From: Escherichia coli
GTDB lineage: Bacteria; Pseudomonadota; Gammaproteobacteria; Enterobacterales; Enterobacteriaceae
NCBI RefSeq assembly: GCF_044324875.1
Contig: NZ_CP172185.1
Length of the DNA: 64,000 nt
Direction: 5' to 3' (one strand)
Shown: positions 11,053 through 12,906 of the stretch, one piece after another
Position numbering within the stretch: position 1 is the first letter of the stretch
How the letters are laid out: every line of letters starts with the position of its first letter
Notes under the pieces: generated by a model
The model's input: the letters and a program-made list of their open reading frames with translations, nothing else
Told to the model about the DNA's origin: nothing
Database searches by the model: none
Program-made: the position numbers and the translations under genes

Positions 11053-12906
11053 ATGAAAATGACTTTGCCGTTTAAACCCCATGTGCTGGCGCTCATTTGC
11101 AGTGCCGGGCTTTGTGCCGCCTCTGCCGGGCTATATATAAAAAGTCGCACAGTGGAAGCGCCTGTGGAAGCGCAATCGACACAACAGACTGCGCCTGACA
11201 TCACCGCGGTTACGCTTCCTGCAACGGTTTCCGCGCCTCCCGTAACACCCGCCGTCGTCAAATCCGCATTCAACACTGCACAAATAGATCAATGGGTTGC
11301 GCCTGTCGCGCTGTACCCCGACGCTCTGCTTTCACAAGTGTTAATGGCATCAACCTATCCGGCAAACGTTGCGCAAGCAGTACAATGGTCGCACGATAAC
11401 CCACTTAAACAAGGCGATACTGCTATTCAGGCGGTATCTGACCAGCCGTGGGACGCCAGCGTTAAATCACTGGTGGCCTTTCCACAATTGATGGCATTGA
11501 TGGGCGAGAACCCGCAATGGGTGCAAAACCTGGGCGATGCTTTTCTGGCGCAGCCGCAGGACGTGATGGACTCGGTACAGCGATTGCGGCAACTGGCGCA
11601 ACAAACCGGCTCGCTGAAGTCATCAACTGAACAAAAGATCATCACGACAACGAAAAAAGTCGTACCGGTAAATCAGCCCGCCAACGCCCCTGCCACACAA
11701 TCAAATACCGTTTCTACGTCCAGCCCCGTCGTCGCAGAACCTGCACCGACCGTAATAACCATTGAGCCCGCCAATCCTGATGTGGTCTATATTCCCAACT
11801 ACAACCCAACCGTGGTTTACGGGAACTGGGCCAATACTGCGTATCCGCCGGTTTATCTGCCACCACCAGCCGGAGAACCGTTTGTTGACAGCTTTGTGCG
11901 CGGATTCGGCTATAGCATGGGCGTTGCTACCACGTACGCGCTATTCAGCAGCATCGACTGGGATGACGACGATCATGACCATCATCATCATGACGATGAT
12001 GATTATCATCACCACGATGGCGGTCATCGTGACGGTAATGACTGGCAACACAACGGCGACAACATCAATATCGACGTCAATAATTTCAACCGTATCACCG
12101 GTGAGCATCTTACTGATAAGAATATGGCATGGCGGCACAATCCAAACTACCGTGATGGTGTGCCCTATCATGATCAGGATATGGCAAAGCGGTTTCATCA
12201 AACCGATGTCAACGGCGGCATGAGCGCCACGCAGTTACCTGCTCCAACACGCGACAGCCAGCGTCAGGCGGCAGCAAGTCAGTTTCAGCAACGAACACAC
12301 GCCGCCCCCGTCATTACGCGAGATACCCAACGTCAGGCAGCGGCACAGCGGTTTAATGAAGCTGAACACTATGGGAGCTATGACGACTTCCGCGACTTCA
12401 GCCGTCGCCAGCCACTGACCCAGCAACAAAAGGACGCCGCTCGTCAGCGTTATCAGTCGGCCTCTCCTGAGCAGCGCCAGGCAGTCCGCGAGAAAATGCA
12501 GACTAACCCGCAGATCCAGCAGCGAAGAGAGGCAGCGCGTGAGCGTATTCAGTCCGCCTCGCCTGAGCAGCGCCAGGCGGTTCGCGAGAAAATGCAGACT
12601 AACCCGCAGAACCAGCAGCGAAAAGAGGCAGCTCGTGAGCGTATTCAGTCCGCATCACCAGAGCAGCGCCAGGTGTTTAAGGAAAAAGTACAGCAGCGCC
12701 CACTGAACCAACAGCAACGTGATAACGCCCGCCAGCGTATACAATCGGCATCACCTGAACAACGTCAGGTTTTTCGGGAGAAAGTTCAGGAGAGCCGCCC
12801 ACAACGTCTAAACGACAGTAACCATACTGTCAGGCTGAATAACGAGCAACGGTCAGCAGTACGCGAACGTCTCTCTGAGCGCGGAGCAAGGCGACTGGAA
12901 AGGTAA
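11053..12906 (+). CDS. yacH: DUF3300 family protein YacH with Asp/His-rich low-complexity tract and C-terminal tandem repeats
   Basis: 617 aa ORF with signal peptide-like N-terminus, DDDDHDHHHHDDDDYHHHDGGH tract and four tandem ~29-aa SASPEQRQ(A/V)(V/F)REK repeats; position between acnB and lpd matches yacH. Confidence 0.75.
   Translation: MKMTLPFKPHVLALICSAGLCAASAGLYIKSRTVEAPVEAQSTQQTAPDITAVTLPATVSAPPVTPAVVKSAFNTAQIDQWVAPVALYPDALLSQVLMASTYPANVAQAVQWSHDNPLKQGDTAIQAVSDQPWDASVKSLVAFPQLMALMGENPQWVQNLGDAFLAQPQDVMDSVQRLRQLAQQTGSLKSSTEQKIITTTKKVVPVNQPANAPATQSNTVSTSSPVVAEPAPTVITIEPANPDVVYIPNYNPTVVYGNWANTAYPPVYLPPPAGEPFVDSFVRGFGYSMGVATTYALFSSIDWDDDDHDHHHHDDDDYHHHDGGHRDGNDWQHNGDNINIDVNNFNRITGEHLTDKNMAWRHNPNYRDGVPYHDQDMAKRFHQTDVNGGMSATQLPAPTRDSQRQAAASQFQQRTHAAPVITRDTQRQAAAQRFNEAEHYGSYDDFRDFSRRQPLTQQQKDAARQRYQSASPEQRQAVREKMQTNPQIQQRREAARERIQSASPEQRQAVREKMQTNPQNQQRKEAARERIQSASPEQRQVFKEKVQQRPLNQQQRDNARQRIQSASPEQRQVFREKVQESRPQRLNDSNHTVRLNNEQRSAVRERLSERGARRLER

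What the first reader, a model, noticed from the sequence alone, without database searches (positions are those of the whole stretch)
11941..12800. YacH: Asp/His-only tract and four tandem ~29-aa repeats
The coding sequence contains DDDDHDHHHHDDDDYHHHDGGHRDGND (a likely metal-binding low-complexity tract) followed by four tandem copies of the unit ...ARQRIQSASPEQRQ(A/V)(V/F)REK(M/V)Q.... At the DNA level these are near-identical direct repeats (12421-12800), which generate the spurious overlapping ORFs in the track and could vary in copy number between strains.
Basis: seen in the sequence. Interest (0 to 1): 0.3.

Follow-up and report, generated by a model that had tools for sequence, protein, structure and literature searches.

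The report
YacH: His/Asp loop, variable repeats
This is the annotated but uncharacterised E. coli gene yacH, whose protein has a natural histidine/aspartate-rich loop and a tail of 32-residue repeats that differ in number (2 to 5) between strains. The polymorphism is real but of an ordinary kind, and no function has been shown.

Summary
The finding is real and lies in yacH (window 11053-12906, +), which sits between acnB and lpdA and is present in 5425 of 5426 complete E. coli genomes.

**What was confirmed**
- The Asp/His tract is exactly as quoted (aa 304-330; 21 of 27 residues are D or H).
- There are four tandem units.

**What needed correcting**
- The units are 32 aa / 96 nt (12412-12795), not about 29 aa.
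- They are 67-82% identical at DNA level, not near-identical.

**Variation**
Evenly spaced samples of E. coli genomes give about 55% four-copy and about 43% three-copy alleles, from at least two different junctions. Two-copy and five-copy alleles are rare.
- The D/H tract also varies in length (+6, +24, -39, -21 nt) in about 17% of genomes, through tandem duplication or deletion between short direct repeats.
- In Salmonella Typhimurium an 8-bp deletion at this site inactivates yacH.

**Structure and family**
- AlphaFold places the D/H tract as a disordered loop inside a confident globular core (pTM 0.85). That core has no solved structural relative.
- Each repeat unit is modelled as helix-turn-helix.
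- YacH belongs to the large exported DUF3300 family. Escherichia alone among the enterobacteria examined has lost the adjacent DUF2950 partner gene.

Metal binding is plausible by analogy but untested. Interest is low to moderate.

The parts
11053..12906 (+). yacH coding sequence (617 aa plus stop)
   Evidence: ORF listed. Pfam DUF3300 match E 4.6e-77. Annotated as yacH in RefSeq E. coli genomes. dN/dS 0.18 against the K-12-type allele.
11053..11127 (+). Predicted Sec-type signal peptide (aa 1-25: MKMTLPFKPH / VLALICSAGL / CAASA, then G). It could instead be an uncleaved signal anchor.
   Evidence: It is the only strongly hydrophobic 19-mer in the protein (aa 11-29, Kyte-Doolittle 2.04). Small residues at -3/-1 (A-S-A) are conserved as AAS/ASG in orthologues. 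Relatives carry lipoboxes or classic signal peptides. Cleavage is inferred, not shown.
11260..12210 (+). Globular DUF3300 core (aa ~70-386): a helical subdomain (aa 75-184) plus a beta-rich part. It extends beyond the Pfam boundary (aa 75-333).
11653..11787 (+). Hypervariable Pro/Val/Thr-rich linker (aa 201-245). This is the segment that makes the window allele a mosaic.
   Evidence: 77% nt identity to the K-12 type against 96-99% in neighbouring segments, with dN/dS 0.31. The sequence matches the L003/L007/L008-type alleles.
11962..12042 (+). Asp/His tract (aa 304-330; 12 D, 9 H). It is a disordered surface loop inserted in the core and is length-polymorphic.
   Evidence: Sequence and composition. 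pLDDT is below 50 in both models. Indels of +6, +24 and -39 nt were mapped at DNA level; a -21 nt variant is inferred from the 7-aa deletion in protein P0007. The tract sits at the same site but has different sequence in every enterobacterial orthologue.
12241..12378 (+). Two degenerate ~23-aa 'TRD(S/T)QRQAAA' helices (aa 397-442). This is the part of the tail shared with other Enterobacteriaceae.
   Evidence: Motif positions. Helices H400-415 and H423-436. The RDxQRQAA motif occurs twice in all orthologues.
12412..12507 (+). Repeat unit 1 (aa 454-485, PLTQQQKDAARQRYQSASPEQRQAVREKMQTN)
   Evidence: Modelled as helix-turn-helix, H458-468 / H472-483.
12508..12603 (+). Repeat unit 2 (aa 486-517). 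This unit is missing in the commonest three-copy alleles.
   Evidence: H486-500 / H504-515.
12604..12699 (+). Repeat unit 3 (aa 518-549)
   Evidence: H518-532 / H536-545.
12700..12795 (+). Repeat unit 4 (aa 550-581)
   Evidence: H553-565 / H568-581.
12835..12903 (+). C-terminal half-unit-like helix 'RLNNEQRSAVRERLSERGARRLER' (aa 595-617), conserved in orthologues
   Evidence: EQR motif at aa 598. H597-606. Orthologues end in ...LNNSQRSAVQQH..RELRHR.
12919..12947 (.). Hairpin flanked by an A-run and a T-run, likely a bidirectional intrinsic terminator for the convergent yacH and lpdA genes
   Evidence: Minimum free energy -15.9 kcal/mol, z = -3.3, 0 of 200 shuffles as stable. Its position between the two stop codons is seen.
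11762..12223 (+). Overlapping 153-aa ORF in another frame across the D/H tract, judged spurious. The same judgement applies to 11941..12201 (-) and 12539..12706 (+).
   Evidence: Listed. The translations are Ile/Met/Thr/Val runs produced by reading GAY/CAY codons out of frame. The yacH frame is the one supported by homology and purifying selection.

Best explanation
The region is yacH, the Escherichia member of the very large DUF3300 family of exported bacterial proteins.

**Anatomy (shown)**
- An N-terminal Sec-type signal, then a short Ala/Pro/Thr linker.
- A globular core of about 320 aa. Its fold is confidently predicted but has no solved relative.
- A disordered 27-residue loop (aa 304-330) inside that core, made almost entirely of Asp and His (net charge -12, 9 His).
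- A basic (+19), Gln/Arg-rich alpha-helical tail of about 220 aa. In it, a 32-aa helix-turn-helix unit is repeated four times. Each unit is two sub-repeats of about 16 aa, each starting at a Pro helix cap: 'NPQxQQRRxAARERIQSA' and 'SPEQRQAVREKMQT'.

**How the variation arises (shown from allele comparisons)**
- The 96-nt units recombine or slip in register. Whole units are added or removed in frame, giving 2-5 copies, and unit halves are exchanged.
- The D/H tract is a run of GAY/CAY codons full of short direct repeats. It gains and loses multiples of 3 nt by tandem duplication or by deletion between repeats. Occasionally it suffers a frameshift that kills the gene, as in Salmonella Typhimurium.
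- The variation changes length but is not an on/off switch.

**What the parts do (inferred, not shown)**
- The D/H loop is most likely a low-specificity binding site for divalent transition metals (Zn/Ni/Cu), or a pH-titratable site, on an envelope protein. The His/Asp-rich disordered loop of periplasmic ZnuA is the analogy.
- The helical repeats most likely act as a spacer or interaction arm in which length and composition matter more than exact sequence.
- In Escherichia the tail appears to have been rebuilt after the family's usual partner gene (DUF2950) and the family's conserved C-terminal motif were lost.
For: **Identity and selection**
- Pfam DUF3300: 259 bits against a cut-off of 25.
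- The gene is present in 5425 of 5426 complete E. coli genomes.
- dN/dS is 0.04-0.08 in the core and 0.19 in the repeats.

**Export**
- There is a single N-terminal hydrophobic segment.
- Relatives carry signal peptides or lipoboxes, and the literature says the same (PMC4653623).

**Structure**
- AF2 full-length and domain-only models place the D/H tract as a loop with pLDDT below 50, between confident strands.
- The same models show each unit as two helices.

**Repeats**
-.

**Copy-number variation**
- Alleles of 553, 585, 617 and 648 aa have 2, 3, 4 and 5 units, with at least three different junctions.
- Evenly spaced samples of 60 of 5425 genomes gave 33 four-copy, 26 three-copy and 1 divergent, and 32, 26, 1 two-copy and 1 divergent.

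**D/H indels**
- CATGAC duplication (+6), a 24-nt tandem duplication (+24), and a deletion between TCATC[A/G]TGACG repeats (-39).
- 10 of 60 sampled genomes carry a length variant or disruption.
- The Salmonella 8-bp deletion lies at codons gac-gat-cat-cac (PMC10048834; PMC3391293).

**Clade pattern**
- The tract is at the same site in all enterobacterial orthologues, with different sequence in each. The tail repeats differ by genus.
- DUF2950 is adjacent in all 14 non-Escherichia loci and absent from all Escherichia loci and from the window.
Against: - No experiment or computation here shows metal binding.
- The published regulation and phenotypes concern CpxR, Rob, protamine and recombinant-protein yield, not metals.
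- Signal-peptide cleavage and periplasmic location are inferred from sequence rules only. One paper lists the protein as 'extracellular' and another as 'membrane' or 'outer membrane', all from predictions.
- The repeats' modelled helices have only moderate confidence (pLDDT 60-85).
- Two- to five-copy alleles all persist, and yacH is a pseudogene in several Salmonella lineages. Whatever the tail and loop do is therefore dispensable in many settings.
- Copy-number frequencies come from systematic samples of 60 genomes, not a full census. RefSeq genomes are not a random sample of E. coli.
Confidence: 0.6

Rival explanations
1. Neutral low-complexity drift. Escherichia lost the DUF2950 partner. 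After that, the tail and the loop became weakly constrained. The repeats and D/H expansions are then mutational by-products with no specific role, and their length variation is neutral.
For: - The partner gene and the conserved C-terminal motif are lost only in Escherichia.
- The tail sequence and unit type differ in every genus.
- Copy numbers 3 and 4 coexist at about 43% and 55%.
- yacH is inactivated in Salmonella Typhimurium lineages and in one ETEC isolate.
- YacH is only 47-52% identical across genera, while AcnB and LpdA are 92-99% identical.
Against: - dN/dS within the repeats is 0.19, not about 1.
- A D/H-rich tract is kept at the same loop in every enterobacterial genus examined even though its sequence turns over. 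This suggests selection on composition.
- The gene is intact in nearly all of 5425 genomes.
Confidence: 0.3
2. Adaptive length tuning, as in tolA. Copy number of the helical units sets the reach or stiffness of an envelope-spanning arm. Opposing selective pressures (detergents, cationic peptides, phage or colicins) keep several alleles in the population.
For: - Precedent in E. coli tolA: 8-16 units among 234 isolates, phenotypes that depend on copy number, and RecA-dependent contraction (PMC3477136).
- Two major yacH length classes at intermediate frequency, arising from several junctions.
- The ΔyacH mutant survives protamine better, and yacH transcription responds to cationic peptides through Cpx (PMC9600279).
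Against: - No phenotype has been tied to yacH copy number.
- YacH has no detectable membrane or cell-wall anchor at its C-terminal end, so 'spanning' is conjecture.
- The frequencies may simply mirror phylogroup structure. For example, the sampled ST131 and APEC O18-type genomes are three-copy.
Confidence: 0.15
3. The D/H loop is an electrostatic or pH switch rather than a metal site. The -12 loop would pair with the +19 tail, or with cationic peptides, and His protonation near pH 6 would release it.
For: - Charge segregation: loop -12 with 9 His, tail +19.
- A link to cationic-peptide phenotypes.
Against: This is based purely on composition. AF2 shows no confident loop-tail contact, since both regions have low pLDDT. 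The reading is not exclusive of metal binding.
Confidence: 0.1
4. The C-terminal 'SPEQRQ' repeats make YacH a relative of the LTXXQ-motif periplasmic stress proteins (Spy/CpxP/ZraP). With the His-rich tract, it would be a ZraP-like metal-stress chaperone.
For: - The motif resembles the LTPEQ-type helix starts of those proteins (from my own knowledge).
- yacH is reported as CpxR-regulated.
- Weak Pfam hits to other 'LSPEQR'-motif families: DUF3106 at E 0.007, and RskA_N at 27.6 bits for the E. albertii tail only.
Against: - No LTXXQ or Metal_resist Pfam hit even at E <= 10.
- A search of 5.8 billion proteins with the tail found only YacH fragments.
- The shared element is a generic S/T-P-E-Q helix cap.
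Confidence: 0.04
5. Assembly artefact or non-coding low-complexity DNA in which the yacH frame is not real.
For: Repeats and homopolymer-like codon runs are classic sources of mis-assembly. Several other ORFs overlap the region.
Against: - The same architecture appears in 5425 complete genomes.
- Indels are multiples of 3 in the sampled genomes.
- Purifying selection acts on the yacH frame.
- Synteny and homology extend across Enterobacteriaceae.
Confidence: 0.01

Closest known systems
DUF3300 (Pfam PF11737) exported proteins, normally encoded directly upstream of a DUF2950 (PF11453) gene
   Same: - Full-length HMM match.
- The same body plan as about 9,500 family clusters: signal, helical domain, 'IxIEPxxPxVVYVPxYNPxVVYG' segment, Gly-rich segment, 'W..DIDIDVN' site, 'WxHxPxHRxGVxYRD' motif, and a low-complexity basic tail.
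- Tandem repeats in the tail recur in other lineages.
   Different: - Escherichia yacH has no DUF2950 neighbour.
- It lacks the family's C-terminal 'AFxGxGxG...RGxxSR...GGGRRR' motifs.
- It carries a long D/H expansion at the 'W-G-H-D-D' site that only enterobacterial members have.
- Its 32-aa unit is found nowhere else.
- The family itself has no known function.
E. coli tolA intragenic tandem-repeat tract (Zhou, Michiels & Aertsen 2012, PMC3477136)
   Same: An in-frame tandem repeat in the helical region of an envelope protein. Copy number differs among natural E. coli isolates, and whole units are gained or lost (searches compared).
   Different: - tolA units are 15-18 bp, about 13 copies, Lys/Ala-rich, and vary from 8 to 16.
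- yacH units are 96 bp, diverged (67-82% identity), and vary from 2 to 5.
- For tolA the phenotypes and RecA dependence were measured. For yacH nothing has been measured.
His/Asp-rich disordered loop of the periplasmic zinc-binding protein ZnuA, and other natural His-rich tracts (ZinT N-terminus, SlyD and HypB tails, H. pylori Hpn). These are cited from my own knowledge and were not retrieved here.
   Same: A disordered stretch rich in His plus acidic residues, inserted in or appended to an otherwise folded bacterial protein. In ZnuA this is an exported protein. The YacH loop is 78% D/H and its pLDDT is below 50.
   Different: - There is no sequence or fold relation to ZnuA.
- No metal-dependent regulation of yacH was found in the literature searched.
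- Binding is untested.
- The only PDB sequence matches of the tract are engineered FLAG/His tags.
LTXXQ-motif periplasmic stress proteins (Spy, CpxP, ZraP) and 'LSPEQR'-motif families DUF3106 / RskA_N
   Same: Short helices that start with an S/T-P-E-Q cap. Yach is reported to be under Cpx-linked regulation.
   Different: There is no significant HMM, sequence or fold match for the E. coli protein. The resemblance is a generic helix-capping motif.

Membership tests
DUF3300 (PF11737) | Match to the family HMM above Pfam's gathering score | tested here: met
   259 bits against a cut-off of 25, E 4.6e-77, aa 75-333 covering profile positions 2-227 of 227.
DUF3300 (PF11737) | N-terminal export signal | tested here: met
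   The only hydrophobic 19-mer is aa 11-29 (KD 2.04), preceded by basic residues and followed by A-S-A. Relatives have signal peptides or lipoboxes (PMC4653623). No dedicated predictor was available, so cleavage is an inference.
DUF3300-DUF2950 two-gene module | A DUF2950 gene immediately downstream | tested here: not met
   tblastn with two enterobacterial DUF2950 proteins hit all 14 non-Escherichia loci (E 1e-46 to 1e-113). It hit nothing in the 64-kb window or in the 13 Escherichia loci. In the window, yacH is followed after 70 nt by the convergent lpdA.
DUF3300 family tail | Conserved C-terminal 'AFxGxGxG...RGxxSR' motif and a Gly/Arg-rich end (GGGRGGGGRRR) | tested here: not met
   The motifs appear in the consensus of 97 members and in all 10 non-Escherichia enterobacterial orthologues as 'NA(L/F)SGNDSRSPSW..Q.QRG.QS'. 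They are absent from E. coli YacH, which ends ...SERGARRLER. The motif is degenerate in E. albertii.
Intragenic variable-number tandem repeat (tolA-like) | Head-to-tail units whose length is a multiple of 3, in frame | tested here: met
   4 x 96 nt in codon phase 0.
Intragenic variable-number tandem repeat (tolA-like) | Copy number differs among natural isolates | tested here: met
   2, 3, 4 and 5 units were seen. About 55% of sampled genomes are four-copy and about 43% three-copy.
Intragenic variable-number tandem repeat (tolA-like) | Measurable expansion or contraction within a clone, RecA dependence, and a phenotypic effect of copy number | not testable with these tools
   This needs fluctuation assays and isogenic constructs, as in PMC3477136.
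Phase-variable contingency locus | Repeat changes that shift the reading frame or promoter spacing and so switch expression on and off | tested here: not met
   All length changes mapped or sampled in E. coli are multiples of 3: 96, 192, 6, 24, 39, 21, 12 and 135 nt. Disruptions are rare one-off events.
His-rich metal-binding loop (ZnuA-type) | A His/acidic-rich, disordered segment on an exported folded domain | tested here: met
   9 His and 12 Asp in 27 residues. pLDDT is below 50, flanked by strands at pLDDT above 85.
His-rich metal-binding loop (ZnuA-type) | Demonstrated binding of Zn/Ni/Cu and a metal-linked phenotype or regulation | not testable with these tools
   No data exist. The literature found reports CpxR and Rob effects only.
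LTXXQ / Spy-CpxP-ZraP family | HMM match or fold match to the family | tested here: not met
DUF3106 (PF11304) / RskA_N (PF22618) | Score at or above the gathering threshold | tested here: not met
   For the E. coli tail, DUF3106 scores 17.3 bits against 24.3 and RskA_N scores 13.7-13.9 against 27. Only the E. albertii tail reaches 27.6 for RskA_N, on a 26-residue stretch.

The most novel reading that the evidence does not exclude
Escherichia YacH is a neofunctionalised orphan of the widespread DUF3300-DUF2950 secreted pair. After losing its partner and the family's C-terminal motifs, it rebuilt its tail from a lineage-specific 32-aa helical unit. It kept an expanded His/Asp loop, giving a metal- or pH-responsive envelope factor. 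Its length alleles (about 55% four-unit, about 43% three-unit, plus loop variants marking lineages such as ST131 and Nissle 1917) would be maintained by selection, for example through sensitivity to cationic peptides.
Probability: 0.12. Interest if true: 0.5.

Novelty: new member of a known kind. Interest (0 to 1): 0.27.

Why it matters
- yacH belongs to the E. coli 'y-ome' of genes without known function. Its family (about 9,500 clusters at 50% identity) has no characterised member and a confidently predicted fold with no solved relative.
- Knowing that the D/H tract is a loop within the folded core gives concrete constructs for a first biochemical test: loop deletion, a 2-5-unit series, and the Klebsiella yacH-DUF2950 pair.
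- The same holds for knowing that the tail repeats are helix-turn-helix units that vary in number among strains, and that Escherichia has lost the usual partner gene.
- Practically, the 96-nt VNTR and the D/H indels are simple lineage markers. The sampled ST131 genomes carry +6 nt and three units, and Nissle 1917 carries +24 nt.
- They are also a trap for short-read assembly and for variant calling.
- A chromosomally encoded His-rich exported protein may also be relevant as an IMAC contaminant.
- None of this overturns current understanding.

Tried and rejected
2. **Gly-rich segment aa 283-301 as a transmembrane helix, which would put the tail in the cytoplasm.** The Kyte-Doolittle 19-mer mean is below 0.9, and AF2 models the segment as strands of the core at pLDDT about 90. 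Rejected for E. coli YacH.
3. **CpxR box upstream of yacH.** A scan for GTAAA-N5-GTAAA with up to 2 mismatches gave 75 hits in the window against 56 ± 7 expected. Only a 2-mismatch site lies at 10984-10998. Uninformative.
4. **Sigma-70 promoter scan of the acnB-yacH spacer.** No + strand hit, and the scan also missed the obvious terminator. That hairpin was confirmed separately by folding.
6. **PDB sequence search.** The only matches to the tract were engineered FLAG/His tags on GPCR constructs.
7. **Literature searches.** Searches for yacH with VNTR, tandem repeat or histidine-rich, and for P36682 or b0117, found nothing on the repeats or on metal binding.
8. **NCBIfam.** No model matches.
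Full report
**What is there.** The finding lies inside a single 617-codon ORF, window 11053..12906 on the + strand. The ORF sits between acnB (8101..10851, -) and lpdA (12977..14434, -). Pfam gives one strong match, DUF3300 (aa 75-333, 259 bits, E 4.6e-77), and NCBIfam has no model. The DNA matches 5425 of 5426 complete E. coli genomes, where it is annotated 'yacH: DUF3300 domain-containing protein'. The window is virtually identical to strain GN25 across acnB, yacH and lpdA. A hairpin flanked by A- and T-runs at 12919-12947 (dG -15.9 kcal/mol, z -3.3) lies between the convergent yacH and lpdA stop codons.

**Checking the observation.**
- The quoted tract DDDDHDHHHHDDDDYHHHDGGHRDGND is present verbatim at aa 304-330 (nt 11962-12042). 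It holds 12 Asp and 9 His in 27 residues, against 6.4% D+H elsewhere in the protein. The binomial P is about 1e-17 after correcting for positions.
- Four tandem units are present, but each is 96 nt / 32 aa, at 12412-12507, 12508-12603, 12604-12699 and 12700-12795, all in codon phase 0.
- The units are 67-82% identical at nt level and 62-78% at aa level, so they are not near-identical.
- Identity at lag 96 is 0.78, against at most 0.37 in codon shuffles.
- TRF also reports a period-48 signal. Each unit is two sub-repeats of about 16 aa, 'NPQxQQRRxAARERIQSA' and 'SPEQRQAVREKMQT'.
- A further half-unit-like helix ends the protein (aa 595-617). Two degenerate 'TRD(S/T)QRQAAA' helices precede the array.
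The larger ones, 11762..12223 (+) and 11941..12201 (-), are open frames produced by reading the GAY/CAY run out of frame.

**Variation between strains.**

*Repeat number.* Ten E. coli alleles were fetched and aligned.
- Four units: the K-12 type and the window.
- Three units with unit 2 missing: FORC_069, R13 and N5D43.
- Three units with a different junction between units 2 and 4: 729_021014_1_4 and SFAD3.
- Two units: 2015C-3107, 553 aa.
- A five-unit allele of 648 aa, and 662-aa alleles with a 45-aa duplication just upstream of unit 1, exist in the protein database.
- Unit halves are exchanged among units in different alleles.
- Sixty rows taken at even steps down the ranking of 5425 genomes gave 33 four-unit, 26 three-unit and 1 divergent allele for the repeat region. 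The whole-gene query gave 32 four-unit, 26 three-unit, 1 two-unit and 1 divergent.

*D/H tract length.* In a similar sample, 50 rows had the reference length. Six had +6 nt (the sampled ST131-type genomes, such as JJ1887), two had -39 nt, one had +24 nt (Nissle 1917), and one was a disrupted gene.
- At DNA level the +6 is a tandem duplication of CATGAC.
- The +24 is a 24-nt tandem duplication.
- The -39 is a deletion between TCATC[A/G]TGACG direct repeats.
- A -21 nt allele (7 aa missing) is seen at protein level.
- In Salmonella Typhimurium, an 8-bp deletion at codons gac-gat-cat-cac (Asp284) makes yacH a pseudogene in 14028s, UK-1, SL1344 and D23580, but not in LT2 (PMC3391293; PMC10048834).

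All E. coli length changes seen are multiples of three. These are therefore length polymorphisms, not phase-variation switches.

**Is it a real, selected gene?** Against the K-12-type allele, dN/dS varies by region.

| Region | dN/dS |
|---|---|
| Helical subdomain | 0.04 |
| aa 332-453 | 0.08 |
| Repeats | 0.19 |
| Linker aa 201-245 | 0.31 |
| Pre-domain linker | about 1 |

The flanking acnB and lpdA have dN = 0. The window allele is a mosaic. Its linker is only 77% identical in nt to K-12 and matches the L003/L007/L008-type alleles, while the rest is 93-99% identical.

**Architecture.**
- The only strongly hydrophobic stretch is aa 11-29. Basic residues precede it, and A-S-A then G follow it, which fits a Sec signal peptide or possibly a signal anchor.
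- AlphaFold2 with a 97-sequence alignment gives a confident core. pLDDT is 94-98 for aa 70-200 and 85-95 for aa 230-300 and 335-385.
- A domain-only run (aa 70-392) reaches pLDDT 86.6 and pTM 0.85.
- In both models the D/H tract is a loop with pLDDT below 50 between confident strands. It is therefore an insertion in the folded domain, not a linker.
- The Gly-rich segment aa 283-301, which looks membrane-like in some relatives, is modelled as strands and is not hydrophobic enough to be a transmembrane helix.
- Each 32-aa unit is modelled as two helices (for example H486-500 and H504-515) at pLDDT 60-85.
- The loop carries a net charge of -12, and the tail (aa 399-617) carries +19.
- The tract's only PDB sequence matches are engineered FLAG/His tags.

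**Family and evolution.**
- An exhaustive HMMER search finds 9,486 clusters at 50% identity with E below 1e-3.
- Members share a signal or lipobox, the helical domain, 'IxIEPxxPxVVYVPxYNPxVVYG', a Gly-rich segment, 'W(G)DxDWGHDDIDIDVN', 'WxHxPxHRxGVxYRD', a long basic low-complexity tail, 'AFxGxGxG...RGxxSR', and a GGGRGGGGRRR end.
- The D/H tract is an expansion of the 'W-G-H-D-D' site. It is found essentially only in the enterobacterial clade.
- In species-representative genomes, the acnB-yacH-lpdA arrangement holds in Escherichia, Buttiauxella, Kluyvera, Klebsiella, Raoultella, Enterobacter and Franconibacter.
- AcnB is 92-99% and LpdA 96-99.6% identical across these genera, while YacH is only 47-52% identical, and 79-82% within Escherichia.
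- Every genus has a D/H tract at the same site, but with different length and sequence.
- Every genus also has its own tail repeats, for example units of about 20 aa, 'QNPTAQQQQRRENAKSHL', in Kluyvera and Enterobacter.
- The 32-aa unit is specific to Escherichia. A search of 5.8 billion proteins with the tail returned only YacH fragments.

**An unexpected point on the partner gene.**
- A DUF2950 gene follows the DUF3300 gene directly in all 10 non-Escherichia enterobacterial loci and in 4 non-enteric loci. There is no trace of it in the window or in any Escherichia locus.
- The literature calls the pair 'universally co-localized', with no characterised member (PMC4653623).
- Escherichia YacH has also lost the 'NA(L/F)SGNDSRSPSW..Q.QRG.QS' motif that all other enterobacterial orthologues keep. 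The motif is degenerate in E. albertii.

**What is known experimentally.** Very little is published.
- yacH is reported as CpxR-regulated. It is repressed by protamine, and the deletion mutant survives protamine better (PMC9600279).
- It is strongly down in a rob-truncated strain (PMC7537768).
- Its knockout modestly raises recombinant-protein yield (PMC7376861).
- It was a GWAS candidate for conjugation efficiency (PMC8954029).
- An RpoF holoenzyme-binding site lies in the yacH-acnB spacer (PMC5493296).
- No paper found mentions the repeats, the tract or metals.

**Interpretation.**

*Shown:*
- The gene, the tract and the four 96-nt units are real.
- Both features are length-polymorphic through in-register recombination or slippage.
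- The tract is a disordered loop in a folded exported domain of unknown fold.
- The repeats are helical hairpin units in a basic tail that turns over rapidly between genera.
- Escherichia has lost the family's partner gene.

*Inferred:*
- The loop binds divalent metals or titrates with pH, by analogy with the His/Asp loop of ZnuA and other natural His-rich tracts (my own knowledge).
- The repeats act as a spacer or interaction arm dependent on length and composition.

The main rival is that both features are weakly constrained low-complexity sequence drifting after loss of the partner gene. The resemblance to LTXXQ, Spy, CpxP, ZraP or DUF3106 that the 'SPEQRQ' motif suggests did not survive testing.

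**Verdict.** This is a previously annotated gene showing a known kind of polymorphism, an intragenic in-frame VNTR like tolA (PMC3477136). I found no publication describing it for yacH. Interest is low to moderate.

Noticed in passing
L009 (NZ_AP043644.1, strain AST85) 3001-4860; corresponds to window 11053-12906: This strain carries a highly divergent yacH allele, about 75% nt identity, with a 25-aa insert and 3 units. It sits in the same slot, while the flanking acnB (95.6%) and lpdA (98.7%) are ordinary. Nine of 5425 genomes fall in this 60-80% identity band. The allele is more divergent than E. albertii's, which suggests allele replacement by recombination from outside E. coli.
   Followed up: partly
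L024 (NZ_LR882997.1, ETEC L3_E36) 2754-4511; corresponds to window ~12019-12178: yacH is annotated as frameshifted here. Directly after the D/H tract, the sequence is the reverse complement of the next ~160 bp of yacH. This is a small inversion with one end in the tract, or else an assembly error.
   Followed up: partly
window 11653-11787 (yacH aa 201-245): The Pro/Val/Thr-rich linker is only 77% identical in nt to K-12, while neighbouring segments are 96-99% identical. It matches the L003/L007/L008-type alleles, so the window's yacH is a recombinant mosaic.
   Followed up: partly
L013-L022 downstream of yacH (e.g. L017 4607-5410, L013 4626-5474); absent from window 12907-12976: A DUF2950 gene follows yacH directly in every non-Escherichia enterobacterial locus and in non-enteric relatives. 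It is missing in E. coli and E. albertii. Escherichia yacH is therefore an orphan of a two-gene module.
   Followed up: yes
P0009-P0011 (662-aa E. coli YacH alleles); corresponds to window ~12300-12435: These alleles carry a 45-aa (135-nt) tandem duplication of 'APVITRDTQRQAAAQRFNEAEHYGSYDDFHDFSRRQPLTQQQKDA' just upstream of repeat unit 1. This is a third kind of length variant in the tail.
   Followed up: no
L017 5462-5758 (-) and the E. albertii yacH-lpdA gap (L012 4798-5546): A small ORF of about 98 aa with a signal-peptide-like N-terminus lies before lpdA, after DUF2950 in Klebsiella and directly after yacH in E. albertii. It has no counterpart in the 70-nt E. coli spacer.
   Followed up: no
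P0143, P0144, P0167, P0178 and many others (non-enteric DUF3300 proteins), extreme C-terminus: Most non-enteric family members end in a strikingly conserved Gly/Arg motif (GGGRGGGGRRR-COOH), preceded by 'AFxGxGxG...RGxxSR'. Its function is unknown. It looks like a sorting or interaction signal.
   Followed up: no
window 12919-12947: A GC-rich hairpin (AAAAAAAGCGGC-GUGGUUA-GCCGCUUUUUU, -15.9 kcal/mol) lies between the convergent yacH and lpdA genes. It has the form of a bidirectional intrinsic terminator, and the consensus terminator scan missed it.
   Followed up: yes
window 8101-10851 (-): The mechanical ORF for acnB (916 aa) starts upstream of the annotated 865-aa AcnB. The extra N-terminal 51 codons are an artefact of ORF calling, not a longer protein.
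   Followed up: no
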